Positions 9,387-39,245 of a stretch of 64,000 nt of DNA are shown piece by piece (the stretch's first letter is position 1; every line of letters begins with the position of its first letter). The notes under the pieces were generated by a model. That model was not told the origin of the DNA. It saw only the letters and a program-made list of their open reading frames with translations, and did not search any database. Source of the DNA: Psilocybe cubensis (taxonomy: Eukaryota); contig CM039005.1 in assembly GCA_017499595.2 (NCBI GenBank), positions 186,001-250,000 on the forward strand, in the 5' to 3' direction. The position numbers were made by a program, and so were the translations under genes.

Positions 9387-9695
9387 TACCCCCAATCTTT
9401 GGACATTGTATCTGCCATCTCTACAAACGTGTCTCTCACCTAGACCCTGGCTTGGCAAAGTCGAGGCTCCGACGGAGCGTGTATGACGTTTTTGTTTATC
9501 CGAAAACATTACATAAAATTGCATCAAATCAGAACAGCCACCGAACGCGTTGCTTGTGCCTCTTTCCTTTGCTTTGACACTCTTGAACTACGCACAAGTG
9601 CCTCACCAATATTCTCGCCTCTGCTTTGCATATTCCTGAACAACACAAAACAGACATCTGTGATAAAACTTTCGTCAGCAGAAGAAGAACAGTAT

Positions 9696-17902: not shown

Positions 17903-19249
17903 TCAATTGTGCTAATATATGGATTCCGGGTGACATGGACATGTATGTCAAGCACAGATAAACATCCTCTTCATCGACATTACAATACCACTGGAGTGGT
18001 CGTTAAGGCCCTGTTCAGTACGGATCAGTTTCGGTTGCAGTGCACATTTCAGTTGCACTTCAACGTGACTGATCTGTGACATATTAGTCAGCGTAGCCAC
18101 AATCGTCGATGTCGTCGATAGACAGTTTCAAAATCTAATCTAAGTGCTCTTTCTGCTTTGCTTCTACTCGCTTCTGGTGTAATTCTCTTCATGGCACTTC
18201 AGGCTCACTGGTCTGATGAAGACCTGGAGGTCTTGATTGCCTTTCTTGTCAGTAAAAAGGCAGCTGCTGGAGATGGTCTCTCTTTCAAAGATGCCATCTG
18301 GACTGAGGCAGCTCAAGAGGTCAACAACAAGAGTCCCCCACTGAGAGGAGCTCCAAAAACTGCTGGAAGCTGTAAAAGCAAGCTGCATAAGGTGATGTCT
18401 TTTGCTTTTTAGATGTCATGATTCTTTCTAAATCTTTTTTAGCTGAAGCAAATCTTTAACATTGTTTCAGACATAAAGGCTCAATCAGGATTTAAGTGGG
18501 ATGAGGAAAGAGGAGCAGATATAGATGATACTACTGCTGAGGTCTGGGCAGCATATGAGAAGGTGCGTAGCTTTTTTTCTTGACTTGATCTATATTTACA
18601 ACTATTTGTAGAGGCACAAAGGAGCATCCCCCTTTCGGAACAAAGGCTGGGTATGGTACAACAAGCTTGTGCCTATTATGCCCAATGCTCCAAGAGGTGC
18701 ACATGTTTTTCATGCCTCAACCCAGTCACAGCAGTTTGTAAATGAGAACGAGGGAGGGGAAATAAGTGATGATGAGCTTGAAAAACCTCTATCTGGTTGG
18801 GGGGTACGTCATTTTTTCTATTTTTATTGCTTTATCTCATTATAAACATTTTAGTCTCCCTCACCTCCTCCTTCTGCTTCGCTTATCACATCTCAAAATG
18901 TGGTAATTCCAGCCAAACGACGGGAATCTGCTCTTTCAAGCGACACAGAGTTTTCAGTTTCTTATTCGGCCAAACGTTCTCGCAGTCACGGTTCCGAGCG
19001 TCCATCTGGTGCCATGGCCTTACATGGTATGAACAGTCGTCTTGATGAATTTACAGATGTGTTCAGAGAGGCTTTTGTTGGAAAGAGGGGTGGTGTTGAA
19101 GCAACTCCTTCTAGAAAGACTCGGGCTATGAAGCGCGTACAGCAGCTTGAAACGCAACTGTCTAATAGCCGTAAAGCGCAAATCGGCCGTATACAATTAC
19201 TGTATATTGTGCCCTACATGCCTCTGTAGTGTGAACCCAACATGCCAGC

Positions 19250-20800
19250 CAAGTACGCACCTTACATGTGCGCCCATTTTGATGATTTATATTGAGCATG
19301 CCTGTGGGAACCATGCTCAGTCTGGTGCACTAGGAGTTCTCATGGCATACCGATGCATTACATACGGTTTGGTGCCTTAGGGCATTACATGGCGTTTAAC
19401 AGCATGTTTAAAGCTCAATGGATGCTAGAGCCATGTTCAAGCTAGTGATCTCTTGGACCAGCGGCAGCTCATGCCACGCTGTGGGATTTGCATATGCAGC
19501 AGTGCCTTGGGGCCTCCAATGGCAGCAAACGAGAGCTATGCTCAGTCTGAGGCGCTGAATTCTTGAATCGGCGGCTCATTGGCATTTTCTACATTTTCTG
19601 GTGCTTCAGGGCATCGAATACGAACAAATGTCATGAGTGAAGGCTTAGTGCATGCCTATAGGAGCTGTGCGTAGTCTGGTGCATCAGGACTCCTTGGAGG
19701 GGGCGGCTCATGCCATGCTGTGACATTTATGCACCCTTTGGTGCCTCACGGCGTCGAATGACAGCAAACGTGAGCCGTGCTCAGTCTGATGCGCTGAATT
19801 CTTGAATCGGCGGCTCATTGGCATTTTCTACATCTTCTGGTGCTTCAGGGCATCACATAGCAGCAAATCTCATGAGTGAAGGCTCAGTGCATGCCTATAG
19901 GAGCTGTGTGTAATCTGGTGCATCAGAACACCTGTGACATTTATGCACCCTTTGGTGCCTCACGGCGTCGAATGACAGCAAACGTGAGCCGTGCTCAGTC
20001 TGATGCGCTGAATTCTTGAATCGGCGGCTCATTGGCATTTTCTACATCTTCTGGTGCTTCAGGGCATCACATAGCAGCAAATCTCATGAGTGAAGGCTCA
20101 GTGCATGCCTATAGGAGCTGTGTGTAATCTGGTGCATCAGAACACCTGTGACATTTATGCACCCTTTGGTGCCTCACAGCGTCGAATGGCAGCAAATGGT
20201 ACTCGTAAGGCTTAGTGCTTACCTATAGAATCCATGCTTATTCGGGTTCACTAGGGGCCCCTCAACTCGCGTAGGCATATGCTGAGCTTCAGACATGCCA
20301 TTTGGTTCCATTCAATACTCTGACATACCGGAATGTTTGTAAATGCCATCCACAGGGTACTATGAGACATCCCTTCAAGGCGTAACACACATTCTGGTGC
20401 CTCATAGCATCAAATGGTAGCAAACGGCATGCACTGAGCTTTGCCTATAGGAGCCGTTCTTAGTCTGGTGCTGCAGGCCTCCTTAAAAAGAGCGGCTCAT
20501 GCTACGCCATATAATATATGCACACTCTAGTGCACCAGGGCATCGAATGGCAGAAAACATGTGCCGTGCTTATTCTGGTACACCAGAATTCTTGAAGCGG
20601 CGGCTCAGGCCACGTTGTGGCATTTACACATATTTTGGTGCCTCAGAGCATCGAATGTCTAGTCTGGTGCACCAGGACTCCTTGAAGGGATAGACTATTC
20701 TGTGCCGGTGGTATTTACTAACATTTTGGTGCCTTGTGGCGTTGAATGAAACAAAAGCACATGTCAGAAGCTCAGCACATGCCTATGGAACCGAGCTCAA
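19250..20800. repeat. Left subterminal tandem array; degenerate ~100-120-bp subunits with a near-perfect 214-bp period in the centre
   Basis: TGACATTTATGCACCCTTTGGTGCCTCAC recurs at 19721, 19935 and 20149; recurrent GGCGGCTCA and AGTCTGGTGC motifs. Confidence 0.88.
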
Positions 20801-20978
20801 GGCTTTTCTGATCAGGATCTGTATATCAGCAGAAGACAAGGCTCATGCTATAACTCCGAGTTAACACTTAGAATTTTGTCAATGCCTAATGTAAACTCGA
20901 TTTTGTACTCCTCCAACTGTGAGCCGTACAAAAATATAGAGCCGTACAAAAATATAATAGATTTTTCTATATTGACTA

Positions 20979-23900
20979 TCATAGTCTTCCTTCCATCTTC
21001 TGAATCTGTTGCCTGTTCCATATAGAGAAGAAAACTCGCATATACATCACCGCTCTTTCCTGTGTCATGTAGCTAACAGCTTTCCGAATTTTGGCAATCC
21101 CACTATTCCCACATTCTGCAGCGCTCGAGTTGAGTTTTAGCAACTCTGGATTGTCAGCACAGTATGTGGACAGAAAACATGCCTCTCCACATTTATGCTC
21201 GCTTGAGTGGAAGATGTCAATAGCAAATAAAGTATCCTTGAAAAATTCGGGTTCACGGGACATGCAGTAGGGCTGCAGTGCACATGCAAAATCATAAACA
21301 ACAACTTTTGGAGCCTTCCTCCATCGGGTATAAATTGCCGAAAATACGTCGTTTCGTCCTTCGGCTGCACGAATGCAATGAAAACCGTAGCATACACTGT
21401 GTGTGCACCAGACACACATGATACCACCGGTCAATCGCTTTTTGGAATATGTCGAATAGTATTTGTGGCAAATATCTTCATCAATGTCAGCTCCCCCAAG
21501 ATCCAGTCCATTTTCATACGGTAAATTTGGGTAATAAGAGCGATCGCGAATGGCTGGCATTGCATAGCAGCATCCAGTCTATAATTCTATTTTGTTAACG
21601 TATGATTGTCAAATTAAAATAAGCATACCTTTAACCACTCATCCTGTGGTATATATTTGTCCAAAGGCGGTGCTTGGGACATTTCATGGACCCTCAATAA
21701 ATCAAACACCACCTTGGATCGTAGATAAAGCCATTCACAGACACCGAGTACATCAGCACTCAACTTTCCAGTCTTAATTTCGTGCTTAACCACTTGGTAC
21801 AGACTGGGGATGAATCGTAATGCCGATGCTTTGGAATCAAGAGGATTCCTAATAAAATGCCTAAGATCCATTAGAGAACTGTGCGTGATCATTTGAAGTG
21901 CATTTTCGTCCGAAGAAATCTACACAGTCATTCAGGAATCAATTATTAGGACATAAATACAAGATTAAAAACGATACCTGAGTGAAAAACTTTGTGTAAA
22001 TATCCAAAGGGTCACACTTAAGAACAACCGCCAGTCCAAAATGTGTGTTAAACAGTCGTCCAAGACTAATGTTGATTTCTGACAACTTCTCAACAAGATC
22101 GGGAATTTTTGTTATCCTCTCCACGAGTTTTTTATTACGATCGTATTCCACAGTTCCTTCGGAGAAAATCTGGTTTGATAAAGTGCTGAGTTGAGGTCCC
22201 TTTATAACAAAGCGTAGTAGGAGTCGAAGGTTTCGATTTGGGATGAGCTGTATATTTTTTACTGGACGTACATTCGACCGCTGAATTGATCTTTTCCCTT
22301 GCATTGTTGGAGGAGTCAAAGATGGAAGCAGATTTCTCCGACTGTATGCAACAGTAACACCATCCCATATAGTTGCATCCGGGGTAGGTCCACAAATAGA
22401 GCAAATCATATCCTGGCCAAAGTCCATGAGACGAATGTATGAAAACCAAGCAGATCGAAACAGTTTTTCATTTGAAAATGGAACCGGTGACTGTCTTGTT
22501 TGATACCGGCGGGACATGGTGAGTGTCCAGGACACAAAAGGAGTCTCCGAGGATGAAAATGCACTAGTATAATCGTCCAACAGGTCATGCGTAAACAAAC
22601 TGCGATTGTTAAAATTGAAGATTCCAAGATTGCTGCAGTCGGGGCCAACATATCGATGAGAGCAGCTGATACATCTTTGGACGGTGATTAAGGATACAAA
22701 GGCTCCTGTCAGTGTATATACAACACACTTTTGCTGCTGAGTTGGTCCTAATGGGTTGAATACAATGCGTGGATTTGAACAGCAGCAGGAATCTCCCTCG
22801 TTTAAAGGGATATAATCCGGTGGTGAATTTACTACCACTCGGGGAGGACTTGGCGGATCAGACTTAATTTGGGCCCAGCACGGAGGTGGAAGACGCTTGT
22901 GGGACACAGACTCAGGAATTCCTGCCATCTGACGTATTGAATTATCTAAATGGCAATAAATCAGCACAGAAAGTCGGGAAAAAGCAACAAACACTACATA
23001 CCACCTAAAAATTGGACTTCATTTGAGTTTGACGTATTGTCAACACTTCCATCACGGGCATTCCAGTCTCCTCGTATGAGCTGTTGCAAAGAATGACGAG
23101 CAGCCACGATATGTGCACATGACACTGCCCCATTGTCTCTGTTGCATCTCCATGATCCTGATCCCGAGTCCTCACCCCGATGTTCAACTACTGCTCTGTT
23201 TTTCAGCGTAGGAAACCATGTAAATGATGGAGTTGAAAAGTAGTTGTTGTACTGTCCATCTACTATACTTTCATTTCTGAAAAATAGAAATGTCTGATTG
23301 TTATTAGAATCTAAATGTAGATGTTATATTGAGTCCTAATGAGAGATAAGAGGATTCGTACCATTGCCATCTGTAGGCAGAGGAAGCTTGAATCCGTTTG
23401 CAACAGTTTCTCTCAAAAAGCGTTCATGAAAACATTCAAATTGATTGTGATTTCTGGGGCAAATGCATGTTTCCTTCCATACACCGTTGAGCTCCATCCG
23501 TTGAATGTGGTACCAGAGTTTCTGGAAAGAAATTTGCAGTGATTATTAGACAATTAACATTATTACTGATCAGTTTCACGCACTGTAGACTCGCGCCTAG
23601 AATTACTCCATCCATTTGCAACAAAAAGATTGCCAGTAAGCTGGTAAAAGCCACATTCATCAGCCAGTACTGCATCCAGGAAGTACGAGTATTCTTCGTC
23701 ATCAGTTCCGGAGGCCCCTTCATTCACTGATTTGCCCAACGCATCTATTTCTGGAACAGATACTCCATAATCTTCATCATAAAAAGGCGCTAATGCATTG
23801 GTATCATCTTGGAGTACTGTTTGAGTTTCGGTTTCGAATTCTTCCGCATTTTTAGAGTATGCAATTGGTGTTGATCGTTGTTTCTTTGCCAGGCGAGATA

Positions 23901-24033
23901 CTTTTCCGCTGACTCTTTTCTTCCGAACAGGAGTTACAATTGGAGAGATACTTTCATGCGCATTGTAGGAATATTGTACTTCGGTAGGGGAATCTGGAAG
24001 GACTGCATAAACAATGGGAGGTGAGTCGCTCAT
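20979..24033 (-). CDS. KDZ-superfamily transposase (HMGXB3-like), multi-exon, with SWIM-like and Cys-cluster domains
   Basis: SWIM-like CICP..ECFH and WRC..SCAH; Cys cluster (CCC..QRCISC..YVGPD..GIFNFNN..FTH); CSICG..IWDG; CHKYY..LTGGIMCVWCTHSVCYGFH..AEGRNDVF; YDFAC; DIFH..HKC; NSSAAECGN. The exons I translated appear open. Confidence 0.88.
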
Positions 24034-24099
24034 GTTTCCCAGAGTACAATGTGAATAGTAAATGACAACTCTATTATTCGTGGTCTGTATTTCATGCCG

Positions 24100-25090
24100 T
24101 GTAGACTACAGTGCTATCTATCAGATGTCTCCTTCCCTGCACATTGTCTGCGTCAAGCCACATAGACTACAGTATTGCACAGGTCTGTGCCTCATGCCAT
24201 GTAGACCATGGTACAACCCATTAGATGGCTCCAGCCTTGAAGGTAGTCTTTGCTTCAGGCCGCGTAGACTAGGGAATTGTATATCCGATGCCTCCTGCCT
24301 TGCAGGTGGTCCATGCGTCACGCCGTATAAACCATGGTATTGTCCATCAGATGGCTCCAGTATTGAAGATAGTCTGTGTGTCACACCGTGTAAACCATGG
24401 GAGTGTCCATCCAATGCCTTCTGCCTTGCAGGTGGTCCGTGCGTCACGCCGTGTAAACCATGGTAATGCCCATCAGATGCCTCCAGCCTTGAAGATGGTC
24501 TGTGCGTCAGGCCACGTAGACTATGGTAATGTATATCCAATGCCTCCTGCCTTGCAGATGGTCTGTGTATCATGCCGTATAAACCATGGGAGTGTCCATC
24601 CGATGCCTTCTGCCTTGCAGGTGGTCCGTGCGTCACGCCATGTAAACCATGGTAATGCCCATCAGATGCCTCCAGCCTTGAAGATGGTCTGTGCGTCAGG
24701 CCACGTAGACTATGGTAATGTATATCCAATGCCTCCTGCCTTGCAGATGGTCTGTGTATCATGCCGTATAAACCATGGGAGTGTCCATCCGATGCCTTCT
24801 GCCTTGCAGGTGGTCCGTGCGTCACGCCGTGTAAACCATGGTAATGCCCATCAGATGCCTCCAGCCTTGAAGATGGTCTGTGCGTCAGGCCACGTAGACC
24901 ATGGTAATGTATATTCAATGCTTCCTGCCTTGCAGGTGGTCTGTGTGTCATGCCGTATAAACCATGGGAGTGTCCATCCGATGCCTTCTGCCTTGCAGGT
25001 GGTCCGTGCGTCACGCCGTGTAAACCATGATATGGCCCATCAGATGCCTCCAGCCTTGAAGATGGTCTGTGCATCGGGCCGCCTAGAATC
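24100..25090. repeat. Tandem array of 63-bp monomers arranged as a 189-bp higher-order repeat
   Basis: TGGTAATGCCCATCAGATGCC at 24461, 24650 and 24839; the ORF track shows 21-aa periodicity on both strands. Confidence 0.93.
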
Positions 25091-25319
25091 TGCTATCTTC
25101 TGGTGGCACAGTATTATGTGCACACATGCCGCCTTGCATCGGGTGTGCATAAGGTGCGCATTGGGTGGCCTCTGCCTTGCAAAATGTTTGTGTGTGCGTG
25201 ACAGCACCATACCACCTGTCTTAGGTCTGCGGTATGAAGGTATTTATTTCTCAGTATATAACCAACGTTCATCCTAACTACTATCTCTTTATACCTCTTG
25301 TTCTATTTCGCACAAATCC

Positions 25320-26754
25320 ATGGCCACCAAAAGTGTTCCGCGTTCACCAAAAAAGGTGTGTAATCTCTCTACAAGCCTGTTACTACCTCTAACACTCAAT
25401 GATTTATAGAAAATGTCTTCAACTTCTGGTAAGACTATGGCAACTCGTGTTAATACACGCTCGTCAAAGGTAAATTACAACAAATTCGTCAAATATGTAT
25501 GTTGAAATTAATAGCATATCCTTTATAGAAGTTAGCACAGAGTCCCAAACGTCAGCCTCAACGTTGCAAGCGATGCCCTGGAAATCCATTTCGCTCACAC
25601 TGTGTTCACACCAAGCACGGAAGGGAGTTTTTAGCCAACCAAGCAGCGGTTGAGGTTTGTCGTTACTATTTCATTCTTATAATATATCTTTGTTACTACG
25701 AAAGTATGCAGAGTCTTCGTACATCTACTCCTGCACCTGAGCGCAACTTGCCTTTGCCTACAGACCTTGGGAACGAATCACCAGTGGGTGCTACTCCATT
25801 TACATCACCGGCAATTACACCATCTCGCCCGTCTCAACTTCCCAACCCGTTCATTTCGAGTCAGTCTACTCATCAGCATGTTGGCACTCCAATGAGCAAT
25901 ATTTCAAGTGTGAGTGGCTACATTCTATCATCTAACACATTTTTGGTTGAACTAGTTTATTTATTAGCAAATTACTACTCCAAGAAGCAATGTACCCAGT
26001 GTCAGTGTACTGCATCACAGACAGTCTGCAGAAGCAGATGCCTCCTCCCCAAACTCCGGAGCTGGAGGAATACATGTTATGACATCCTCGCACCTGGCCA
26101 GCCTTTCTGTGCGCTCATCATCCCAAAGCTCGTCTGCAGGCTCTGCAAGTCGACCTAATCGGACTAGTGCCCAGAATCCATACAATGGATATGTTGATGG
26201 AGCATATCGAGGCTCGTCTGTTTATCGTGAGTTAACCTTTTTGTCTTCTACTCAATTTAAACTTCAATAATCGTGTCAGAAATTGTTCGAGGGCATCGTC
26301 TCCCCTCGCCAATCTCCGATAATACTCGTTCAGTCAAGAAATTTACTAACACAATTAATTCTATCATTGAAAAGGTATGGCTTTGTATTAAATGTTGTAC
26401 AATCTGATATCATGTGCTGCGCAGTGTGAAGACATCTCGAAAGAGACAGGTTGCTGGCTCTTTATTGGAGCACAGCATGCTACAGCACGCGCTGGGTCTA
26501 TTAGCTATGCTTCCCCTCGACTAAGGCGCGATGCAGCTGAGCAAGTAGGTCAAATCGGGACACAGTTTTCTACTCTCACCCGAAACTTGATTCATTCACG
26601 TACCCAAGAGACACTTGATCTCCAACGACAGCTGGAACAGTCTCGTCGTGAAACCGAGGAGGCAAAAAAGTCTTTGGAGGCTGTTCAAGAGAACCAAAAG
26701 GAGTTGCGTAGTATTCTAGACAGATTTCGTGAACAGTATCACATTGATGTGTAG
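25320..26754 (+). CDS. KDZ cargo gene: basic N-terminus, CxxC..C.H knuckle, Ser/Pro-rich linker, divergent MADS-box-like domain and coiled coil
   Basis: GT-AG exon chain from MATKSVPRSPKK; CKRCPGNPFRSHCVH; KKFTNTINSIIEK|CEDISKETGCWLFIGAQH..SYASPRL; C-terminal heptads. Confidence 0.72.
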
Positions 26755-28208
26755 CAATAATGTTATGATAACGGATTGGATTACCATAATCATTCTCTCT
26801 GGTATCATACTGAATGCATGAGCGCTGAGCCCTCAGGCAGTAGAAGGCATGAGGCACCAGATGTACAGGCATGCCATATAGCAAGTCCTATCGCCTGCCA
26901 TCTGTTTCTGTCCCAAGTCTAGAATCATGTGACCATGTCTTCATTTATTCACACGATGTGCTAGTTTCTTATAAAGCCCTAGCTGTAGACTGGGGCATGA
27001 GCTTCTAAGAAATATTAAACATACTAGATAAAGGGAATTTGTATTATCTATACGGATGTGCTATTTTAAAAAGTCTCCAATGAGTGTGGCACTGTTCATA
27101 TTCACTTTATGTATCGACGGATGACCATCAATGGCTGTGCATATCGTGGGAATGCTGATCCCACATCTTTGAGGCCAGGTGAAATGGATGCTTCTGGTCG
27201 CACACACCGCTTGGTAGTCATATATACTTACTAAAATAGTCACACAAATTAGGTGAGAGTCGCATACAAACCAGTGGTTGCATATACTTGACAAAATGGT
27301 CACATATTAGTTGAAAGTCGTATACCCCTAACGTAAGTCACATACTAAGACTTGCTGTTCATGACGAATTAGAAAAGCTTAGAGATGTACCAGTAAATAG
27401 ACCATGTATTCTTGGAAAGGCATCAGCAAACGGGTAAGAGTTGGTGGCGGTCATGGAAAGCGTGGAGATTAGTAGGAAGAGGTAGCTGAAGAGAAAATAT
27501 CTACTCACTTGTGCCCACACATGCGCATGCTCACCTTTCACAAAGTGCCGTCTTTGAACCTATCATACATATTTCCATACCGTGCACCCGCTCACCCACT
27601 ACAGCACTACTTCACTCAAATCATTGTACTTGTTGACATTGATTCCAATGCCTGCATGCATATACATCCCATAGCAATGTGGGTATGGAGTCTTTATCCC
27701 AGGCTGTGCCATCATCCCCCCGCTCGTGCTTGAGTTTATGTTTGTATTCTCCTTTGACTGTAGATATTTGTTCTAAGCATGGTTTGCATCTAATATAGTC
27801 TTCTTCTCTAGACCAATAGTATTTATTATATACAAGCACAAGGCGCTCTTCCTTGAGTTTGCTCTTTGCAAACACAGAGTTAAAGATCAGTCTCATGTCC
27901 ATATATTGTGTTTCTTCTAAGGCACTGTTTGAAGGTAACAACAATATGCTAGATGCGGGTGTCTATTTTCAAGTTGTCTTTCATGTTCTAAAACACCACC
28001 CAAAATGTAAGAGCACTAAATAATAGAGCTTAATGTACCATGTATACAACCTCTCTCTCATATTACTCCTTGGATGTCTGTCAGCCATGGCCGTTCAGAC
28101 GTAACACTGACAAATTGTGGTTACATCAATATTTGATTGCGTCTTTTCCTTCTTTCCGTCTTCTGTTCGTCACTGACTCTTGGACCCCATTATCCCTCAA
28201 TTTTCATT

Positions 28209-29152
28209 ATGTCGTCTAAGAAGTCCCACTCTGCAACAGTACAGAGCGCTGACAAAAAGCTTGGATCATCTAGTAGCAAAGGTAACGATGTTACGGGATA
28301 TAGAAATTGATAATACTTACACAGACGTTACTCTACTCAGCTAGGAAAGACCCACGTGTAGGGCCAGATGGTAAAACCAAGCAGCAACGCTACGTTGAGA
28401 GGTATATTTCAATGTATTCAACAGTATTCTATTTTGTGACGTCTCTTTTCCAGGAATAGGGATGCTATAAATGCAAAAAATGCGTTACGAAATCGGCAAA
28501 AACGTGCAAAACAGTGAGCTGTTAATCACACTATATGGACTATGATCCTGACCCCCAGCGTAGAAAGCAGCTTGAAGAAGATGAATCAGAGCTAGAGGCC
28601 GTCGAGGCTTTGGTCAATCCCTCTACAGGTCAAGATATAGGCACAGACGACCAAGATCAGTTCTCCGACGGTGATACTGACTCGGACAGTGTCATTGCGC
28701 AAGGAGAAGACCCGTTTCCCCAAAAGGCTGAAGAGCCAAAGCGACCAACTACGTATGAAGAGGTAGTGCAGGAGTACATTCGATATCACGACCGCGAGCT
28801 CGACGCAGAGTTGGACCTTTTAGTTGTGTATGACGAATTCAAAAGGGCCAACGCCATGTACGATGACTGTCGGGAAAGGTATGGCACGTACTTTGATTCT
28901 TTATTGCCTCAATACTGGACCGTTGTCGACGGGTGGACACACAAGCATAAATATGCGGGGAGCAGCCTCCAGGTTGAGGGTGAACACTTGTTGAGGGAAA
29001 TTAGAGACACCGAGAAACTTTTTAACTCAGTATTGCTCAAGCTACCCCCTAAGGACGATGTATGGGCAGAAGCCTTCGACATGACTCGTCATTTAATGGG
29101 ATGGATGACATACCTTCATCATATCCATGAAGGACTTTCCGATGACATATAG
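28209..29152 (+). CDS. KDZ cargo gene: basic helix, acidic tract and helical domain, unknown function
   Basis: Exons MSSKKSH..SSK|ARKDP..QRYVE|RNRDAINAKNALRNRQKRAK|..RKQLEEDESELE, joining ORF 28535-29152. Confidence 0.7.
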
Positions 29153-29316
29153 ACGTATTCAATATGTCGTAGTTATTCACTTCGTGTAAATTTTGAAGAA
29201 ATGTATCTCTTTAATCGACTCTTATTTTGAACAATTCTGACTGTCACTTTGAAGTGTTTGACATGCTATGAACTTGTGAAAATAACTACCAGCTCAACTA
29301 GCTTACAACGGTGTGG

Positions 29317-30179
29317 TCAAATGTCTACCTCTGACTTTACAAATGGCTCCCCGTCAACAACACTGGTAGTGTTTAGAGTTAATGGTAATCGAATATCACG
29401 TCCACGATCCACCATAACAACTACACCTGCTTTCAATGCCAAGGTAAACGCCTCTACCGCCTCTGACCTCAACCGATAGGGAACAGCCCGAGCGCCCTTA
29501 ATGAACTTGATATTTTCCTGGATTCCAACACTGGTATAGGTATTAGAATAATTATGAGTTCCTGCAGTTGAGCACTTACGTCCCAACATCATCAAGGAGA
29601 TACACTCCGGGATTCCTACCCACTAAAACTGCCATCCAAGACGCCTCCTCTGGACCTGCTACATCACAATAATGAATGTCAGCAAATTATGAGTTTTATA
29701 GCCGAAACACATACTTGGATCACCATTGCGAAATCCATTCAAACCGCTAAGCTGAGAAAGCTTGAGGGTTTCGCGAGTTGGTGTCTTCACAAGGACAACC
29801 TGAGACGATTGCAGTGCTTCTCTGTACATGTCTTCGGCTTCGTCTTTAGACAGACAATAGCGAGCATATCCGCCAGAGACATTCTGGTAGGTCTTCAATG
29901 CTTTCTCACTACCATTGCATTTATTAGACATAATTCAATGGAGAGTTAGAAACTCTCACCGTCCTTGAATGGGCCCTGTATGTGTACCGACAAAGACACA
30001 ATACCATCGCTCCTTCGGGGGAGGAAGGCTGATATGACATTGGCATCCACAATTGGATAGTTTGCAAGTAATGACTATACATAAGAAGAAAATCACTCAT
30101 TATATAGCTATGCATATAGATATTGCAGAGGCTTACCGTCGCTGCTTGAGCCGTCGCTGCTTGAGGGATTCGCTTTCAT
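29317..30179 (-). CDS. KDZ cargo gene with two RNase H1 N-terminal (Cauli_VI/hybrid-binding)-like domains
   Basis: Spliced ERWYCVFVGTHTGPIQG..YQNVSGGYARYCLSKDEAEDMYREAL and WMAVLVGRNPGVY..IKFIKGARAVPYRLRSEAVEAFTLAL. Confidence 0.75.
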
Positions 30180-30429
30180 GAGGGAGTGGAGGTATGCCCT
30201 GATGACAGGACGACATTACAATCATTTTGTATAATTCTGAGCTTGGCTACAGAAGGCCGAAGAAACGCACACCATCAAGCTACCCGCATGGTAATGGCCA
30301 CTCCAAGCACGTTAGGCCTAATTGAATCGCGTAGACTAATATCTAGAATGTGGGAAAATGGACTTCGCTAATCTTATTAGTCACTGAAAGCACTGCTCAG
30401 GCATAAAAATTTCATATTTACCAGGGTAA

Positions 30430-30870
30430 ATTGAAACCCTCGTGCCCATGGATATCAGACATGTGCCTTCCAAGCATTATGGATGCGAAGAATATGAGAT
30501 TAAGGCATGTCCTGAGCGCTCCGATGTATCTTATGCATCTCAGTCCCTCAGCCGTGTCTTTTATCTTTCTAGTATGCCGTGGATCGCGGGCCTGTGTTTC
30601 CTGTGCTATGTCTTTGATCCATCTAGCACAAGAGTCCGAGATTAACACATGCTCTGAGCTCTCTCCCATATCCGCATGTCAGTCGCTCAGCCGTGTCTTT
30701 TATATATCCGAGAATATACCATCAATTATGTTTCTGTGTTTCCTGAGCCGCGTCTTTGATCCTTGATGCCCCCAGCACCGGGTGAATTTGTGCTTCCCTG
30801 AGCCATCGTATTGACCTCCAACCATATAGTGGATCCGTGTTTCCTAAGCCCCTAAGCCGTGTGTTTCATT
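30430..30870. repeat. Degenerate short tandem repeat array
   Basis: Recurrent (GTGTTTC)CTGAGCCG(T/C)GTCTTT(G/T)ATC-like units. Confidence 0.65.
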
Positions 30871-31081
30871 CCTACAGCTCATTCAGAAATCCGCCTCTTA
30901 GAAGACTCGACTCCATACACAATTCACAAGATCTATTCACTAGCTGTGACCTCGGACATATGACTGAGCCACACATATCTGGTATATCTCTCCTCATAAA
31001 AATAGAACTACAGCTTATTAAACAAAGCAGATCCCTTACAACCAGAGAATGAGAGTACCGGTACGACCAATAATTCAAAGA

Positions 31082-34000
31082 ATGAAGGTATGATTTCATT
31101 TTTTGCGAGTGGTGATATAATAACCCATGGTAGATACAGGACATCAAGAGAAGAAAAAAAGGGGACGAAGCAAGGCTTCAACCACTTTGGTTCCTCCGAT
31201 TCCTGAACATGAGGGACGCTATACCCTCCGTCGAGGTTATTTTACTATGTCATAGCCTGAAAGCTGAAACCTTGCTGACCTTCATATTTACCAGGGAAAC
31301 AATATAGCACTTCTGTTGAGAGAAGTAAAAATAGTGCTTCTCACCAGCGCGTGAAAAATATTATCTTGGAGACTATTCAAGACAGCACGGACATAGATAA
31401 CTCTAAGGGTGTACGTTTTTAACATCGTCTAAATCTCTCCATGTATTGACGCAGAGTACATAGACCGGTGGTTCTTCAAACACGGCCACCAATGGAGCCG
31501 ATAAAGCCGTTCTAGATAAGAGGCCAGATCCGTCAACATCTGTTCATGACGCCGAAGTTCAGCCAGAGCAGACGCAAAGTCCTAACATACCTGACCAAAC
31601 ACATAACATTAATCAAACACTGGTATGTTCCCGTCTTAATTCTATTATATTTATATATATATATAATCTTTGAAGCAGGAATCAAGTTCCGCTTCTGCGT
31701 CCCATACCAGGACTTTGAATTTGGATACCTTTGACAATAATACTGCCATAAATACGGTGTTGTATGACCCAGAATCAAACAATCACCCGACGGTGCCTGA
31801 GGTGAGCATGATTGATAAACCTCGCTACTGCTGAATCTATCTAAATTGTAAATGTAGCCATCCAATCACGTCTTTGGCTTTAAAGAGGGGTCTACTTCTC
31901 ATGTAGACTCTCAGAATGGCGTGTCAATAGATGAAGCCTATTCCCTTTTCCATGCGCCAAAGGAATCTCACAACCTGCAGCCGGTATTGTTCACTATATA
32001 TTTCTGTGAGGATCCAGACCTTAAAATGAATCTTAGAATGGAAATGCCGCTCTGTTTTCGCCACTTGAGAGCCAGAATATGACTTTTACACAGTTGCTGC
32101 AGGACGCTATTATGGTGAGCATGTTGTATAACATTGAAAATGATCATCTTAAGAACGTTATGTTAAATACTGCAGCCTGATACGCCAATCAATCACACAT
32201 ATACCATGGACGTTAACATGTCCCACCAGCTGGTAAGCTTTTGTCTATTCGCTAAGGAGGTAGAGATTAAACCATTTTGCTTGTAGATCTCCAATAGCCA
32301 GTTTGATATGTTATATCCAGAAAACTTCTCTACGAGCAATGGTGCCCAGCAATTCTCTGAATCTCATATTACCCAGGACAATACTCAGGATCTGCCTACA
32401 CGTGGCAGTACCTACGGTTCTCTGGACTTCAAATTTGATGCACAGACAAATGGCACGCTCGACACTCAGAACCCGGTAAGCTTTTAATTGGTAAAGATAT
32501 CTCTGCTGACTAATCTACAATACTCTAGAATATGACGGATATCAATTCGTTAATTCTGAATGCTCCCGAGGACAGTACGGAATCCAATAATATCAAAGGT
32601 CGTCAAGTTTCCGCAAGCAGTCTCAATGAAACCACTCCTATCCTCACCATTCCTCCCCACATTTTGTCTCTCATTTCTCCAAAGCTTCAGGAGGAATTTG
32701 ATATGTCTGTTGCAAATCGTCAGAAGGTATTTTTGGAGTACTCGGAGCGTGAACGCATGATTTGCGCACCTGCTCAGCGAACATTACCGGAGATTCGACA
32801 TGCACTAGAAAATATTGACCGTTGCATTGACTCCATCCAACGTCACAATCTCCGTATTGCAGAAATTCAGGAGGAGGTAGCAAAGGCTCAGCGCAAATTT
32901 CAGGATGCCGAAAACATCAAATCGTTGGAGGAAAAGTTGGCTTTGCTGCGGGACGAAGAAAAACGTGCACAGTCAAATCTTGAAAACGGGACAGTAGAGA
33001 CGTTTTTGGACCTAAAGCAGGCTTTGATGAGTATTCGGTCGCAGATTCGGGATGTCGGCCTTCTTCTGGATGTAGCATCGGCCTCGTTGAAGAACTCCAA
33101 GTCACAGAGCCCTTCGGCTTTGTCAGCTGGTCAATCAAGTGTAGTGCAGCCACCAGCTCCAAAGCCCAATCGCTCAAAATCGACTCAGCCAGTTAATGAG
33201 AAGCCCAGTGAAAAGCGCGCAGCACCTTCAAAGCCTCCTCCTCGCAAAAAGGCAAAAACAGGACGTCCTAAACTGATCGAGGAAGAGTCCGACTCCGACG
33301 AGACAATCGAAGATATAGGCGTCGAGACTATGGATATTATCCAGGAAAGGACCTGGGCGTCCATGAACCTGCACGATCGTGGTAAATTTGAAGGTATGTG
33401 TGTCTGTGTGTGTTTTTAAATGTCTAATCTCTCTAATTTTCAATTCTATAGCCGGTGCAAGACAGGCCATGCATCTCTACGAATCCACTGGGGATATATC
33501 TCATTTTCATATCCGCTATCGGCTTGCTCTTCGCCACATCCAATCTTTCTTACCAGAAGAATGCTTTCATTCCAAAAAAGTGGCTATTGCAATCTTCCGG
33601 ACAGCTTCCCTGAACTTAGTGTGTCGCTTTCACAAACGCTTTTCAAAGAACAAAATCCACGATGGCGTCGGAGTCATGAGAATCCAGGGAGTCCCATACC
33701 AACCCAGCTACAATTCAAGAGAAGGAAAAGCACAAGAACCGCAAGAGGGATATATGCATTGTGGGTGTCTGGTTGACGACGTCTTACTGGATTTCTTTTT
33801 TTGGAAGACTTTAACAATCACATCGCCACTTGAGAGGCTAAAGGGGATTTCGGAGCCAATGATGCAAAGCGTTTTTAGGCCCCGTATGCGCGCCTTTCTT
33901 ATCCAACTTTTCAAGCTATACACATGTTTGACAGCTGACGACATCTACTGTTCTACTAGAGAGCAAGGACAGCCCGCATCATACCGAGAAAATGAACTCA

Positions 34001-34119
34001 TGAAGCTCAGTATTGTTCGTTTATTAGCTAATTGGAATATGCGTACTGGGCGGCGTGTTTTCTTCCTAGATCCAGATGATCAAAATTCTCAGGAAAACAC
34101 TTCGACTACAGAGCATTAG
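31082..34119 (+). CDS. KDZ cargo gene: many small 5' exons, coiled coil, basic/acidic linker, C-terminal domain with CRFH and HCGC motifs
   Basis: ORFs 32532-33419 and 33379-34119 are linked by a GT-AG intron (~33394-33450). Upstream exons are inferred from splice signals, so the start is uncertain. Confidence 0.65.
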
Positions 34120-34178
34120 ACTACTAGGTAGCTTAGATAGAATAGCATATATTCTAATAAACCACTAAGCCAGCTATT

Positions 34179-34731
34179 TCATCTAATATACAGGTTTGAA
34201 TCCGGATGGAAGCTGTAAATATTCATCAATACTCTGTACCCCTTGATCATATAGCCATAATGCCTTGTGTGCATGCTAAGTTTATTAAGTTTATCATCAG
34301 AATAGAGAAATAAGCATCTTCTTACGACGAGTTTTGCCCTTAGCCTTTCTGCAAGGGTTTCCATTGCCTTTACCCGCTTTAATGGTAGTTTATACCAAGC
34401 TATGCGAGTAAATATTGTTTGAAATCGAGGCTATGATATACGATATGAATCGAATATTAAGTATAATGCAGAGAATGTAACGTACAAATGATCTCAGATA
34501 GAAACAGTGTGTGGATCTAAGACACGCGAGGGATAGATTGTATGTGTCGTTGTTTACTGCATGCCTCTTCTTAATATACTTTTTTAAAGAGTCTTGTGCT
34601 TCAGCGAGTTCTTGAACCGCATCTCGAAGATAAAGAAGACTTTTTATAAGTCGTTCCTTGTTTTTGCGTTTGCGTTTTCCAGAGTTTATTGGTCTGAGAG
34701 ACACTGCGGCTTTTCGACGAAATAATGGCAT
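34179..34731 (-). CDS. KDZ cargo gene: small basic two-exon protein, unknown function
   Basis: MPLFRRK..KRKRKNKERL..FYLRSF|PRFQTIFTRIAWYKLPLKRVKAMETLAERL; one GT-AG intron joins two ORF-track ORFs in frame. Confidence 0.6.
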
Positions 34732-34954
34732 GAGAAAACACGGGAGAATGGATGATATAAGAAAAGCCAAAGGTCCGGGGAATGCCTGGAGAAATCTAAC
34801 CAACGATGTAAAGGCCCCCTACTTAGTAGAGAGCAGTATAGCTTGGCAAGCGTACCCGCCCCATTTCCTCAAGATTGGATACTGGTGCGCTCAGACCTCG
34901 CATTTGCAGCCTTATGTATGGCATGCCCTTTGCCGCCAGTCAGAGGGGTGCTGA

Positions 34955-35730
34955 ACCAATGCCCTGAGCCGCCAGTAGTGAAAGGAGGGGTGCACCCTAG
35001 CCTCTAGAGTTGAGAAATGAGCGCTGGTGAGCCATAAGACATGCCGGTTCAAGGTGGTGCTGTGGGGCTTAGCTTTGTAGGAATACTGGAACTGATGCCC
35101 TGAGCCGCCAGTAGTGAAAGGAGGGGTGCGTTGAGGCACGACCATGAGGAAGTAAAAAAATTGATGCCCCTAGCCTCTAGAGTTGAGAAATGAGCGCTAG
35201 TGAGCCATAAGACATGCCGGTTCAAGGTGGTGCTGTGGGGCTTAGCTTTGTAGGAATACTGGAACTGATGCCCTGAGCCGCCAGTAGTGAAAGGAGGGGT
35301 GCGTTGAGGCACGACCATGAGGAAGTAAAAAAATTGATGCCCCTAGCCTCTAGAGTTGAGAAATGAGCGCTAGTGAGCCATGTGGCATGCTGGTTCAAGG
35401 TGGTGCTGTGGGGCTTAGCTTTGTAGAAATACTGGAACTGATGCCCTGAGCCGTCAGTGCTGAAAGGAGGGATGCGTTGAGGCGCAACCATGGGGAAGTA
35501 AAAAAAACTGATGCCCCTAGCCTCTAGAGTTGAGAGGTGAGCACTAGTGAGCCATGAGGCATGCCGGTTCAAGGTGGTGCTGTGGGGCTTAGCTTTGTAG
35601 GAATACTGGAACTGATGCCCTGAGCCGACAGTGCTGCAAGGAGGGGTGCGTTGAGGCGCAACCATGGGTAAGTAATTAGACTGATGCCCAAAACCTCCCA
35701 TGCTGAGAATGCTGAGCCGCCAGTGTTCAT
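34955..35730. repeat. Right subterminal tandem array, 173-174-bp unit, about 4.5 copies
   Basis: ACTGATGCCCTGAGCCG at 35091, 35264, 35437 and 35611. Confidence 0.93.
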
Positions 35731-36561
35731 AGCAGGGGTGCCATGAGACATACCCATGTTCTTGAGGCACATAAAGGTGCAAACTCCCATAAAGAAACCT
35801 GAGGCACTTACATGATAATAAAACATATCTTGGCAAGCGTCCCCGCACCCTATCATCATATACAAAAATGTAATGGCAGGCCCGGTGATGATGGACAGCA
35901 GGGTGCCGTGAGCCACATTGTTGTGGAAATAACCAAACCAAAGGCCTGTGCCGCCGTCTTTAGTGTCTTGAGCATGCCGCACCACTTGTACACCACAAAC
36001 AGTCAACATTCAACCTCAGAAGCGTTGTAATTATGCTTGGCAAATCTCAAGGCACCAGGATGTTTGTGCATGGCATTCGACGCTCAGAGACACTCTTGTC
36101 AAACATAGTTTTATAAGTGTCAATAGAGGTACTCATTACACTGTGCCATCCCGTATTTCTTACTTCACACAAGTTTAAGACTTGTAGATATAGCTTGCTC
36201 ATACTAAAACATGTATTTTCGTAATTTTGGGTCATTCTGCGGGACAGACATCCGCAGTGACTGAAATAATCTAATGAGGGATCACTTCCGAGTAGCGACT
36301 CTATATATTGGATCAATGCGGGGTACTTACTTCGCCTTGATGTCAGGTTTGAGTTTAGCATATATGTCAGGTGCGTTATGACTGCATTATAACCCAGCCG
36401 GTAACCCCCGTAAAGTGGCTTTGATTGATTTGTTTCAAGCTGATGTTAGTATGGCAGATACATATCTCTCATTGACAGACAATGGTGTTCGAGAGGCATG
36501 GGTTAAAAGGCACACAAAAGATGTGGAGGAAGAAGAATAGTTAATTTATAGTACTTGATTA

Positions 36562-38919: not shown

Positions 38920-39100
38920 CGTGGGAATATCCTGAGTACAGTGTACGCAGAATATTCCCACGGTCAACCTCTCCCGATATTCAGCCGAGTGTGGGAATAT
39001 TCTGCGTACAGTGTACGCAGAATTCTCCCACGGACTTCCTCGCCGATATTCAGCCGAGTGTGGGAATATTCTGCGTACAGTGTACGCAGGATTCTCCCAT
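38920..39100. repeat. Three tandem ~41-bp palindromes (period ~70 bp) between the convergent Helitron genes
   Basis: GTGGGAATATTCTGCGTACAGTGTACGCAGAATATTCCCAC-like units separated by near-identical ..CCGATATTCAGCCGA linkers. Confidence 0.9.
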
Positions 39101-39245
39101 GGGGTGCCAACTAACACTTTCAGATAATTTCTGTCATGAAAATGACTTGACAAATTATTCCTTGTTATTTACAATGTTCACGCAAATGGATTGATTGTTC
39201 GTTCAGCACATTTATGATATCCTTGTCTTTCTATGTACATATGTA

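What the first reader, a model, noticed from the sequence alone, without database searches (positions are those of the whole stretch)
19250..35730. Oppositely oriented GGCGGCTCA / TGAGCCGCC motifs in the left and right subterminal arrays may replace TIRs
Seen: the left array repeats GGCGGCTCA or a close variant (~19570, 19702, 19809, 20023, 20492, 20600). The otherwise unrelated right array repeats its reverse complement TGAGCCG(CC) (~34965, 35101, 35274, 35447, 35621, 35713). GAGCCG also occurs in the 30430-30870 array and in the duplication at 20921-20956. Both termini have CGGC at positions 8-11 in inverted orientation. Inference: these are multimerised binding sites for the transposase or a cargo protein that define the element ends.
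Basis: partly seen in the sequence, partly recalled or inferred. Interest (0 to 1): 0.78.

Follow-up and report, generated by a model that had tools for sequence, protein, structure and literature searches.

The report
Mirrored motif clusters in TIR-less transposon
A 17-kb mushroom "KDZ" jumping gene has no inverted repeats at its tips but carries about a dozen copies of one short DNA word pointing inward near each end, which makes that word a testable candidate for how the element's enzyme recognises its ends.

Summary
GGCGGCTCA occurs 9 times in the window, 5 on + in the left array and 4 on - in the right array, against 0.26 expected.

Empty-site contigs and reads fix the element at 19177-36407, which is 17,231 bp, with an 8-bp duplication CCGTAAAG. 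A second insertion site carries the duplication AATTTATC. The element sits inside a Harbinger transposon. It encodes an intact CxC4-type KDZ transposase. Its termini show no inverted repeat.

The motif widens to GYGSCTCA. The left end has 11 sites on + and 1 on -. The right end has 11 on - and none on +. The sites lie 394-1461 bp and 491-1435 bp from their termini. Apart from this motif, the two arrays are unrelated.

Three right-end sites lie outside the tandem array, so amplification alone does not explain the pattern.

Relatives on metagenome contigs have real 73-183-nt inverted repeats and lack the motif.

Best reading, at about 50%: polar subterminal transposase-binding sites standing in for inverted repeats, as in En/Spm or Ac. 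Binding is untested and conservation in close relatives could not be checked. A TIR-less CxC4 KDZ element (KDZx1) is already published, so this is a new variant of a known kind.

The parts
19177..36407 (.). Whole KDZ (CxC4) transposon, 17,231 bp, without terminal inverted repeats
   Evidence: the joint 19168->36408 skips 17,239 bp, with 8 letters fitting either side. It was seen in contigs of X3, X4 and X5 and in 20 reads of X9. Loose ends lie at 19177 (X4, X5) and 36407 (X5); no TIR.
19169..19176 (.). Left copy of the 8-bp target-site duplication CCGTAAAG
36408..36415 (.). Right copy of the 8-bp target-site duplication CCGTAAAG
19298..20799 (+). Left subterminal array of about 14 diverged 99-140-bp units, including a 214-bp higher-order repeat. 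It carries 11 GYGSCTCA sites on + (19571-20645) and 1 on - (19548).
   Evidence: (nhmmer E 1.6e-32 to 3.5e-07).
34953..35916 (-). Right subterminal motif zone. It holds four 173-bp units (34993-35673), partial units at 34953-34993 and 35712-35758, and three non-array sites at 35763, 35800 and 35909. There are 11 GYGSCTCA sites on - and none on +.
36039..36093 (-). Single left-type unit in inverted orientation, 314-368 bp from the right terminus. It is marginal, but it is the best hit of the left-unit profile anywhere outside the left end.
   Evidence: E 0.024; I7, I20.
20982..24033 (-). Transposase gene of 5 exons, collinear with residues 1-914 of a 917-aa homologue. It has a CxC4 zinc-cluster domain. 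Its last exon corresponds to the KDZ catalytic core.
   Evidence: PF18717, E 1.5e-46; tblastn exon map; PF18758 weak in homologues P0043 and P0031.
24119..25174 (+). Internal 63-bp tandem array of about 14 copies, just upstream of the transposase start. It carries weaker motif-like sites (YGTGCGTCA) on +.
   Evidence: 9 of the 12 interior + hits.
25529..34818 (.). Cargo region with reading frames of unknown function, mostly on +. No Pfam family reached its curated cut-off.
   Evidence: frame 28526-29152 is 99% identical to a Psilocybe cubensis hypothetical protein; not conserved in the metagenome relatives.
18007..37964 (.). Host PIF/Harbinger transposon into which the KDZ element inserted. 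It has 51-nt perfect TIRs, a TAA duplication and a DDE_Tnp_4 transposase at 36562-37891 (-).

Best explanation
The GYGSCTCA words are orientation-specific, multi-copy binding sites for the element's own transposase. The extended form is about tgGYGSCTCAnrGCAyc, and GGCGGCTCA and GGTGCCTCA are its commonest versions. The likely reader is the transposase's N-terminal zinc-cluster (CxC4) region.

The sites sit in clusters 0.4-1.5 kb inside each end and point inward from both termini. In this reading they load several transposase molecules on each end in mirror symmetry and bring the ends together. That is the job a long terminal inverted repeat does in the element's relatives. Cleavage then happens at the fixed termini 19177 and 36407 and leaves an 8-bp duplication.

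Shown: the termini, the duplication, the lack of a TIR, mobility at two or more sites, the motif, and its polarity and enrichment.
Inferred: that a protein binds the motif, which protein it is, and that the sites are needed for transposition.
For: 1. GGCGGCTCA occurs 9 times against 0.26 expected, 5 on + at the left and 4 on - at the right.

2. GYGSCTCA occurs 35 times against 7.18 +/- 2.65 expected. The left end has 11 on + and 1 on -. The right end has 0 on + and 11 on -. First-order Markov simulations give 0.09-0.20 per strand per end, and 0 of 5000 reached the observed counts.

3. Tandem copying is not the whole story. Three minus-strand sites (35763, 35800, 35909) lie outside the recognisable right-array units, in a 667-bp stretch where 0.035 are expected; 0 of 5000 simulations reached 3.

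4. The motif can be defined from the left end alone. Only seven 9-mers occur 5 or more times there, and they form three blocks: TTTGGTGCCTCA, GGCGGCTCAT and TCTGGTGCA. About 0.002 shared repeated 9-mers are expected with the right end in one orientation; GGCGGCTCA is shared. The exact left-end 8-mers GCGGCTCA and GTGCCTCA occur 4 + 4 times on - and 0 times on + in the right end.

5. Among 78 pairs of 13 window regions, which include four other tandem arrays, only the left-end/right-end pair shares 8-mers repeated 3 or more times in both. There are 6 of them, all inverted and none direct.

6. A 17-nt weight matrix gives 26 + and 2 - in the left 1.5 kb, and 0 + and 19 - in the right 1.5 kb. Outside the element it gives 22 + and 25 -, which is the background rate.

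7. The two arrays are otherwise unrelated, so the shared word is not residue of a recent inverted duplication.

8. The element has no TIR and yet has moved. There is an empty site, and a second site in X5 whose flanks end and begin with AATTTATC.

9. Relatives use inverted information at their ends: 8 of 30 long loci have 73-183-nt TIRs, and L009 has an 8-bp duplication.
Against: 1. No binding or transposition data exist.

2. The motif is absent from all 68 fetched relatives; no locus shows a cluster. These relatives are distant, at 37-59% identity. Of 43 loci with at least 1.2 kb downstream of the gene, 22 have no 8-mer repeated 4 or more times there.

3. Pairwise similarity of the two ends is not significant by itself (best blastn E 0.07).

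4. The degenerate pattern GYGSCTCA was chosen after I had seen both ends.

5. Within the arrays the motif blocks are only slightly more repeated than other blocks, at 5-6 copies against 4. Two right units carry changed versions, GACGGCTCA and GTCGGCTCA. Conservation above the neutral rate is therefore not shown.

6. The sites stop 193 bp (left) and about 450-490 bp (right) short of the termini. In Ac or En/Spm the equivalent sites abut the ends.

7. The arrays vary in copy number between copies. One joint (19324->20660, contigs of X4 and X5) would remove most of the left array.

8. Genes on both sides are transcribed outward, so the motif polarity is equally mirrored with respect to transcription.
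Confidence: 0.5

Rival explanations
1. Relic of an ancestral long TIR. The family's ancestor had a 100-180-nt TIR with internal sub-repeats. In this lineage each arm was expanded separately by unequal crossing-over and then drifted. The shared inward-pointing word is leftover homology with no present function, and the ends are recognised by something else, such as the terminal ~100 bp.
For: Relatives have 73-183-nt TIRs (8 of 30 loci). The TIR of L011 contains two copies of an internal ~17-nt sub-repeat. One left-type unit lies inverted near the right terminus (36039-36093, E 0.024). Array copy number varies among copies. A 13-nt inverted match, ACGCACCTTACAT / ACGCACCTGACAT, lies 79-91 nt from the left end and 32-44 nt from the right end; 9 of 500 shuffles equalled it.
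Against: The rest of the units has diverged beyond profile detection, yet the 8-mer survives at roughly 8 distinct places per end. That includes three sites outside recognisable units. Neutral decay should not spare it in this way.
Confidence: 0.2
2. Transcription- or RNA-linked element. The arrays lie downstream of outward-pointing genes: the transposase runs towards the left end and the + strand cargo frames towards the right end. The word, read as UGAGSCRC in read-through RNA or as a DNA site for a host factor, would then act in termination, 3'-end formation, silencing or expression rather than in end recognition.
For: Gene orientation is mirrored exactly as the motif is. A third array with weaker motif-like sites sits at the transposase 5' region (24119-25174), where an end-recognition site has no obvious role.
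Against: No RNA evidence was obtained. Nothing in the searches links the word to a known fungal signal. Arrays of 11 sites spread over 1 kb are unusual for terminators. Relatives put inverted repeats, not such arrays, at their ends.
Confidence: 0.15
3. Coincidence amplified by tandem duplication. Two unrelated satellites happen to share one short word, and copying of the units multiplies the count.
For: Three of the 4 exact right copies and 3 of the 5 exact left copies sit in units that are 95-100% identical. Best pairwise E is 0.07.
Against: About 0.002 shared repeated 9-mers are expected. A second left-end 8-mer, GTGCCTCA, recurs 4 times on - at the right, twice outside the array. Three non-array sites were found where 0.035 are expected. 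No other pair of regions among 78 shares repeated 8-mers.
Confidence: 0.1
4. Binding sites for a cargo-encoded accessory protein rather than the transposase. The models are TnpA of En/Spm and the Myb-like protein of Harbinger.
For: The element carries about 9 kb of frames of unknown function. One frame (28526-29152) has homologues of 99% and 88% identity, named only from Psilocybe cubensis, so it travels with the element family.
Against: None of the 25 cargo frames tested has a Pfam family above its cut-off. None is conserved next to the transposase in the 68 metagenome loci. The transposase has its own zinc-cluster domain.
Confidence: 0.05

Closest known systems
KDZx1 of Cryptococcus deneoformans (Huang et al. 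2024, bioRxiv 10.1101/2024.08.15.608186; I read passages only)
   Same: The transposase has a CxC4 domain, insertions carry 8-bp duplications, no TIRs were detected, and there are extra frames of unknown function. KDZx1 was caught transposing into FRR1.
   Different: KDZx1 is 6,397 bp against 17,231 bp here. The passages I read mention no subterminal motif arrays. Its SWIM domain was not detected by Pfam in this element or its nearest homologue. I could not compare its sequence.
Zisupton / Dileera elements as characterised in Repbase (Kojima 2025, PMC12730594, passages) and KDZ1-3 of C. neoformans
   Same: They belong to the KDZ superfamily and make 8-bp duplications. The metagenome relatives fetched here fit this pattern, with 73-183-nt TIRs and, in L009, an 8-bp duplication.
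   Different: Those elements have TIRs; KDZ1-3 have 139-241 bp and a CxC1 domain. This element has none.
Kyakuja-1_LB / Kyakuja-2_LB of Laccaria bicolor (Kojima 2025, PMC12730594, passages)
   Same: They are KDZ elements from Agaricomycetes reported to have no TIRs.
   Different: They make 7-bp duplications and have 5'-CA..TG-3' termini. Here the duplication is 8 bp and the termini are CG...CC.
Subterminal repeat regions of maize En/Spm (12-bp TnpA motif) and Ac/Ds (AAACGG hexamers); recalled from general knowledge, no call
   Same: Many copies of a short word are clustered near both ends and serve as protein-binding sites that help pair the ends. This is the working model proposed here.
   Different: Those elements also have short TIRs (CACTA..., CAGGG...). 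Their motifs abut the TIRs within roughly 200-300 bp and occur in both orientations. Their duplications are 3 bp and 8 bp. Here there is no TIR, polarity is strict, and the sites lie 0.2-1.5 kb inside. The element is not a member of either superfamily.
Multi-site transposon ends of Tn7 (TnsB sites) and phage Mu (L1-L3, R1-R3); recalled, no call
   Same: Several transposase sites per end lie in mirrored orientation with unequal spacing at the two ends.
   Different: These are bacterial systems. Their sites lie within about 150 bp of the termini, and the terminal nucleotides are conserved.

Membership tests
KDZ (Kyakuja-Dileera-Zisupton) transposons | CxC-type zinc-chelating domain in the transposase | tested here: met
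   PF18717 CxC4, E 1.5e-46, 157.9 bits against a cut-off of 26.9, on frame 21939-23018 (-).
KDZ (Kyakuja-Dileera-Zisupton) transposons | KDZ catalytic domain (Pfam PF18758) | tested here: inconclusive
   The domain was not reported for the window's exons or for P0001, P0002 and P0005. Homologues P0043 (26.1 bits, cut-off 26.6) and P0031 (17.9 bits) match it weakly in the part that aligns to the last exon.
Zisupton/Dileera-type KDZ | 8-bp target-site duplication | tested here: met
   CCGTAAAG flanks this copy. AATTTATC lies at a second site in X5. Relative L009 has TAGTAGGG.
Zisupton/Dileera-type KDZ | Terminal inverted repeats | tested here: not met
   The terminal 40 nt align no better than 377 of 500 shuffles, and 9 of 30 anchored positions match. 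Published TIR-less exceptions exist: KDZx1 and Kyakuja.
Kyakuja-type KDZ | 7-bp duplication and CA..TG termini | tested here: not met
   The duplication is 8 bp. The termini are 5'-CGCAAA...TAACCC-3'.
CACTA/En-Spm-like subterminal-repeat transposons | CACTA termini, 3-bp duplication, Transposase_21-type enzyme | tested here: not met
   The termini and duplication differ and the transposase is of the CxC4/KDZ type. The resemblance is one of mechanism only.
Transposons with subterminal transposase-binding repeats (functional class) | The same short word is clustered near both ends in mirrored orientation and enriched over background | tested here: met
Transposons with subterminal transposase-binding repeats (functional class) | The word is bound by an element-encoded protein and needed for transposition | not testable with these tools
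   This needs EMSA or DAP-seq and a mini-element transposition assay.
Transposons with subterminal transposase-binding repeats (functional class) | The word is conserved in closely related copies or families | tested here: inconclusive
   Only distant relatives (37-59% identity) could be fetched, and they lack it. The limited output of read laying showed one variant unit in other copies with ACAGCTCA in place of GCGGCTCA, and another junction that restores GGCGGCTCA (tables 5 and 5c).

The most novel reading that the evidence does not exclude
TIR-less KDZ transposons do not mark their ends by terminal sequence at all. They use polar arrays of a short transposase-binding word placed 0.2-1.5 kb inside each end. 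The mirror symmetry needed for a paired-end complex would then be carried entirely by dispersed subterminal sites, and cleavage would be positioned at a distance. That would be a mode of end definition not described for eukaryotic cut-and-paste transposons. It would also explain how KDZx1 and Kyakuja elements move without TIRs.
Probability: 0.25. Interest if true: 0.75.

Novelty: new variant of a known kind. Interest (0 to 1): 0.5.

Why it matters
KDZ elements are large cargo-carrying fungal transposons. In Cryptococcus they were recently shown to be active and to cause drug-resistance mutations. Some of them (KDZx1, Kyakuja) are reported to lack TIRs, and the passages I read offer no explanation of how their ends are recognised.

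This element provides three things:
- exact termini;
- proof of movement at two or more sites;
- a concrete 8-17-nt candidate recognition word with strict mirrored polarity.

Together these turn the question into a simple binding and mini-element experiment. If the word proves functional, it would also help to delimit TIR-less KDZ elements in fungal genomes, where they are now hard to annotate.

Tried and rejected
1. Whole-genome copy search: no genome is held for this window.

2. Earlier notes of this scan: nothing by place, by sequence or by words.

3. Motif conservation in relatives. The metagenome scan returned 68 loci, all distant at 37-59% identity. None has a cluster of GG[CT]G[GC][CTA]TCA. 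Of 43 loci with at least 1.2 kb downstream of the gene, 22 have no 8-mer repeated 4 or more times there, 13 have only CTG-type simple repeats, and 8 have other repeats. This says the word is lineage-specific. It does not test close relatives.

4. Mirrored k-mer clusters in long loci. The peaks turned out to be ordinary TIRs. Loci without TIRs, such as L007 and L034, showed nothing above their own 99th percentile by much.

5. Homology of left and right arrays. Profiles of either unit find nothing in the other end, apart from one marginal inverted left-type unit at 36039-36093.

6. A cryptic TIR was rejected.

7. A composite origin, with the KDZ nested in another 8-bp-duplication element, was considered. 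No inner duplication or second pair of ends was seen, and both outer ends recur together with a fresh duplication in X5. This is not formally excluded.

8. Cargo frames as DNA-binding proteins: no Pfam family above its cut-off, and no TET/JBP gene.

9. Similarity of 19007-19036, outside the element, to an array unit: not significant (E 2.1; absent).

10. One script printed nothing, and one stopped on my own coding error after three of four rows.

11. Supplementary files of the papers, which hold the element sequences and termini figures, were closed, so published KDZ ends could not be inspected for similar arrays.


Full report
**What is in the sequence.**
Exact GGCGGCTCA occurs 9 times in the 64-kb window, against 0.26 expected; 0 of 100 dinucleotide shuffles reached 9. 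Five copies are on the + strand at 19570, 19702, 19809, 20023 and 20599. Four are on the - strand at 34965, 35101, 35274 and 35713. There are none elsewhere. The named variants are present too: AGCGGCTCA at 20491, and TGAGCCGTC at 35447 and TGAGCCGAC at 35621.

The hexamer GAGCCG is barely enriched, with 29 found against 17.5 +/- 4.5 expected; 3 of 100 shuffles reached 29. Only one copy lies in the 30430-30870 array. The two copies at 20921 and 20939 point the 'wrong' way for the left end.

**Anatomy of the locus.**
The region is a nest of fungal transposons.
- A 51-nt perfect inverted repeat (18008-18058 / 37913-37963), a TAA duplication and a DDE_Tnp_4 transposase define a PIF/Harbinger element at 18007-37964.
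- I laid contigs of three public runs and raw reads of a fourth on 18000-37999. This gave a joint from 19168 to 36408 that skips 17,239 bp, with 8 letters fitting either side. It appears in one contig each of X3, X4 and X5 and in 20 reads of X9. It is a Harbinger copy without the insertion.
- The inserted element is therefore 19177-36407 (17,231 bp), flanked by the duplication CCGTAAAG.
- Contigs of X4 and X5 run from other flanks into 19177. Contigs of X5 run out of 36407 into another flank.
- In X5 the left flank ends, and the right flank begins, with AATTTATC. That is a second insertion with its own 8-bp duplication.
- The element has thus moved as a unit at least twice with exactly these ends.

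**The transposase and the cargo.**
The minus strand from 24033 to 20982 carries a five-exon gene. It is collinear with residues 1-914 of a 917-aa protein of Psilocybe cubensis. The best homologues are 54-64% identical over the CxC4 frame and come from Psilocybe, Gymnopilus and Galerina.

Pfam finds the CxC4 cysteine cluster of KDZ transposases (E 1.5e-46). The KDZ catalytic model PF18758 is not reported for this clade. It appears only weakly in two homologues: 26.1 bits against a cut-off of 26.6, and 17.9 bits, in the part that aligns to the last exon.

Twenty-five further reading frames in the 9-kb cargo region gave no Pfam family above its cut-off, and there is no TET/JBP gene. One cargo frame is 99% identical to a P. 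cubensis hypothetical protein and 88% identical to a second one.

**No terminal inverted repeat.**
The best local alignment between the terminal 40 nt of the two ends is equalled by 377 of 500 shuffles. Nine of the first 30 anchored positions match. The shared CGGC at positions 8-11 is real but has no weight. A 13-nt inverted match (ACGCACCTTACAT / ACGCACCTGACAT) lies 79-91 nt from the left end and 32-44 nt from the right end. It is borderline, with 9 of 500 shuffles equalling it.

**The motif, generalised.**
In the left end only seven 9-mers occur five or more times. They form three blocks: TTTGGTGCCTCA, GGCGGCTCAT and TCTGGTGCA. All three are versions of one word.

Written as GYGSCTCA, the word has 35 matches in the window against 7.18 +/- 2.65 expected; 0 of 100 shuffles reached 35. 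Its distribution is as follows.

| Region | + strand | - strand |
|---|---|---|
| Left end (19548-20645) | 11 | 1 |
| Right end (34965-35916) | 0 | 11 |
| Interior of the element | 1 | 3 |
| Outside the element | 1 | 7 |

Five of the 8 outside sites sit in an unrelated 63-bp repeat near 62.2 kb.

Measured from the nearer terminus, the sites span 394-1461 bp on the left and 491-1435 bp on the right. All but one point inward. The extended consensus is about tgGYGSCTCAnrGCAyc. The right-end site CTGGCGGCTCAGGGCATC matches the left-end site CTGGTGCTTCAGGGCATC at 15 of 18 positions.

A 17-nt weight matrix was built from the 17 distinct sites, with the threshold set at 5e-4 per position.

| Region | + hits | - hits |
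|---|---|---|
| Left 1.5 kb | 26 | 2 |
| Right 1.5 kb | 0 | 19 |
| Interior | 12 | 7 |
| Outside the element | 22 | 25 |

Nine of the 12 interior + hits lie in the 63-bp array upstream of the transposase start. The count outside the element is the rate the threshold predicts. The outermost hits lie 193 bp from the left terminus and about 450 bp from the right terminus.

**Is it more than chance and tandem copying?**
Much of the raw count comes from recent unit duplication. Left units at 19718 and 19932 are 100% identical. Right units are 83-95% identical. Four controls address this.
- About 0.002 repeated 9-mers are expected to be shared in one orientation between the two ends.
- The two exact 8-mers defined from the left end alone, GCGGCTCA and GTGCCTCA, occur 4 + 4 times on - and never on + in the right end.
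- Three sites (35763, 35800, 35909) lie outside the units that a profile of the right array can recognise. That 667-bp stretch is expected to hold 0.035 sites, and 0 of 5000 Markov simulations reached 3.
- Among 78 pairs of 13 regions of the window, including four other tandem arrays, only the two ends share 8-mers repeated three or more times in both. There are six of them, all inverted and none direct.

Several points weigh against over-reading.
- The best pairwise blastn alignment between the ends has E 0.07.
- I chose the degenerate pattern after seeing both ends.
- Within the arrays the motif blocks are only slightly more repeated than neighbouring blocks, 5-6 copies against 4. Slower evolution of the word is therefore not demonstrated.

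**The arrays are otherwise unrelated.**
A profile of nine distinct left units finds units from 19298 to 20799 on + and one inverted unit at 20348-20263. Its best hit elsewhere in the whole window is a single marginal inverted unit at 36093-36039 (E 0.024), 314-368 bp from the right terminus. It does not find the 173-bp right array. The right-unit profile finds nothing in the left end.

**Relatives.**
The only relatives whose DNA I could fetch are 68 metagenome loci. They are 37-59% identical to the last transposase exon.
- None has a cluster of the word.
- The cargo frames are not conserved in them.
- Of 30 loci of 4.5 kb or more, 8 have inverted repeats of 73-183 nt flanking the gene: L009, L010-L013 (one family), L020, L022 and L053.
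- L009 has an 8-bp duplication, TAGTAGGG. L009 and L022 share the terminal sequence GAGGTATCG... The TIR of L011 holds two copies of an internal ~17-nt sub-repeat.
- The wider family therefore normally has TIRs and 8-bp duplications, and this element is the odd one out.
- The word is lineage-specific.

The limited read-laying output shows that other copies differ in array length, with joints 19324->20660, 19768->20148, 20040->20656, 20202->20939, 35188->35552 and 35633->35694. One variant unit carries ACAGCTCA where this copy has GCGGCTCA. Another junction (20686->19700, 65 reads in X9) restores GGCGGCTCA where this copy has lost it.

**Literature.**
I read passages only.
- Kojima 2025 (PMC12730594) states that Zisupton and Dileera make 8-bp duplications, and that Kyakuja-1/2_LB make 7-bp duplications with CA..TG termini and have no TIRs.
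- Huang et al. 2024 (bioRxiv 10.1101/2024.08.15.608186) describe KDZx1 of C. deneoformans. It is 6,397 bp, with CxC4 + KDZ + SWIM domains and 8-bp duplications; no TIRs were detected, and it is experimentally mobile. They also describe KDZ1-3 with a CxC1 domain and TIRs.
- The Gusa-group preprint (10.1101/2025.05.19.654958) gives TIRs of 139-241 bp for KDZ1-3.
- A full-text search for Zisupton together with 'subterminal' found 2 papers, neither relevant by title or abstract. A second search for KDZ transposon with binding-site terms listed nothing relevant among the 15 shown.
- The supplements, which hold the element sequences, were closed.
- A TIR-less CxC4 KDZ element is therefore already known. 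Mirrored subterminal word clusters in one are not reported in what I could read.

**Interpretation.**
The best-supported reading, at about 0.5, is that the word is a polar multi-copy binding site for the transposase. It would give the two ends the mirror symmetry that TIRs provide in relatives. It would work like the subterminal repeats of En/Spm or Ac, or the multiple end sites of Tn7 and Mu; these comparisons are recalled, not tested.

| Rival reading | Probability |
|---|---|
| Non-functional relic of an expanded ancestral TIR | 0.2 |
| Transcription- or RNA-linked role | 0.15 |
| Amplified coincidence | 0.1 |
| Binding by a cargo protein | 0.05 |

The transcription-linked rival exists because the genes on both sides point outward, exactly as the motif polarity does.

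The gaps between the last sites and the termini (about 190 bp left, 450 bp right), the copy-number variation of the arrays and the lack of any binding data keep confidence moderate.

**Verdict.**
It is a new variant of a known kind. Interest 0.5.

Noticed in passing
window 18007-37964: Host PIF/Harbinger element with 51-nt perfect TIRs and a TAA duplication. Without the KDZ insertion it would be about 2.7 kb. Other copies in the laid runs differ mostly by C>T and G>A changes, a RIP-like or deamination-like pattern. Its right flank is itself high-copy, with 464 reads showing a loose end at 37965.
   Followed up: partly
window 16338-16384 / 40274-40320 and 16976-17022 / 38920-38966: Two further concentric inverted-repeat pairs (47 nt, 87% and 91% complementary) enclose the Harbinger. 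The inner pair belongs to 69-bp palindromic repeats at 38904-39102. This suggests at least one more layer of nested transposons.
   Followed up: no
window 51087-51230 / 57378-57521: A 144-nt inverted repeat (97% complementary) bounds a ~6.4-kb segment with a GC-rich interior (0.54-0.55) and internal 292-nt direct repeats at 51781 and 56751. It is probably another DNA transposon.
   Followed up: no
window 7710-7741 / 9357-9388: A perfect 32-nt inverted repeat lies 1.6 kb apart. It is a candidate small non-autonomous transposon.
   Followed up: no
window 24119-25174: A 63-bp tandem array of about 14 copies, with a 189-bp higher order, lies directly upstream of the transposase start codon (24033, minus strand). 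It is open on both strands (323 and 334 aa) and carries weak motif-like YGTGCGTCA sites on +. Other copies carry a 606-bp shorter form (joint 24179->24786).
   Followed up: partly
window 19255-19267 and 36364-36376: A 13-nt inverted match, ACGCACCTTACAT / ACGCACCTGACAT, lies 79-91 nt from the left terminus and 32-44 nt from the right terminus. Nine of 500 shuffles equalled it. It may be a terminal-proximal recognition element.
   Followed up: partly
L009 890-1047 / 7445-7605; L022 1764-1866 / 9695-9796: Two metagenome relatives share the TIR start GAGGTATCG(G/A)ACGAT(G/A)AAATA. L009 has a perfect 8-bp duplication, TAGTAGGG. These are complete 6.7-8-kb CxC4-KDZ elements with conventional TIRs.
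   Followed up: partly
window 28526-29152 (+): This cargo frame is 99% identical to one Psilocybe cubensis hypothetical protein and 88% to another, with no other homologues in the length range searched. It is an element-specific orphan gene, and it indicates two diverged sub-lineages of the element.
   Followed up: partly
window 23220-23269: Reads of X9 (61 and 54) and contigs of X5 break at both coordinates and run into other sequence. Other copies therefore carry a replacement or insertion in this intron-side stretch of the transposase gene.
   Followed up: no
window 62176-62652: A 63/42/21-bp GC-rich tandem repeat rich in GAGGCGC / GCGCCTCA accounts for 5 of the 8 GYGSCTCA matches outside the element. 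It looks like a coding charged repeat and is unrelated to the transposon.
   Followed up: no
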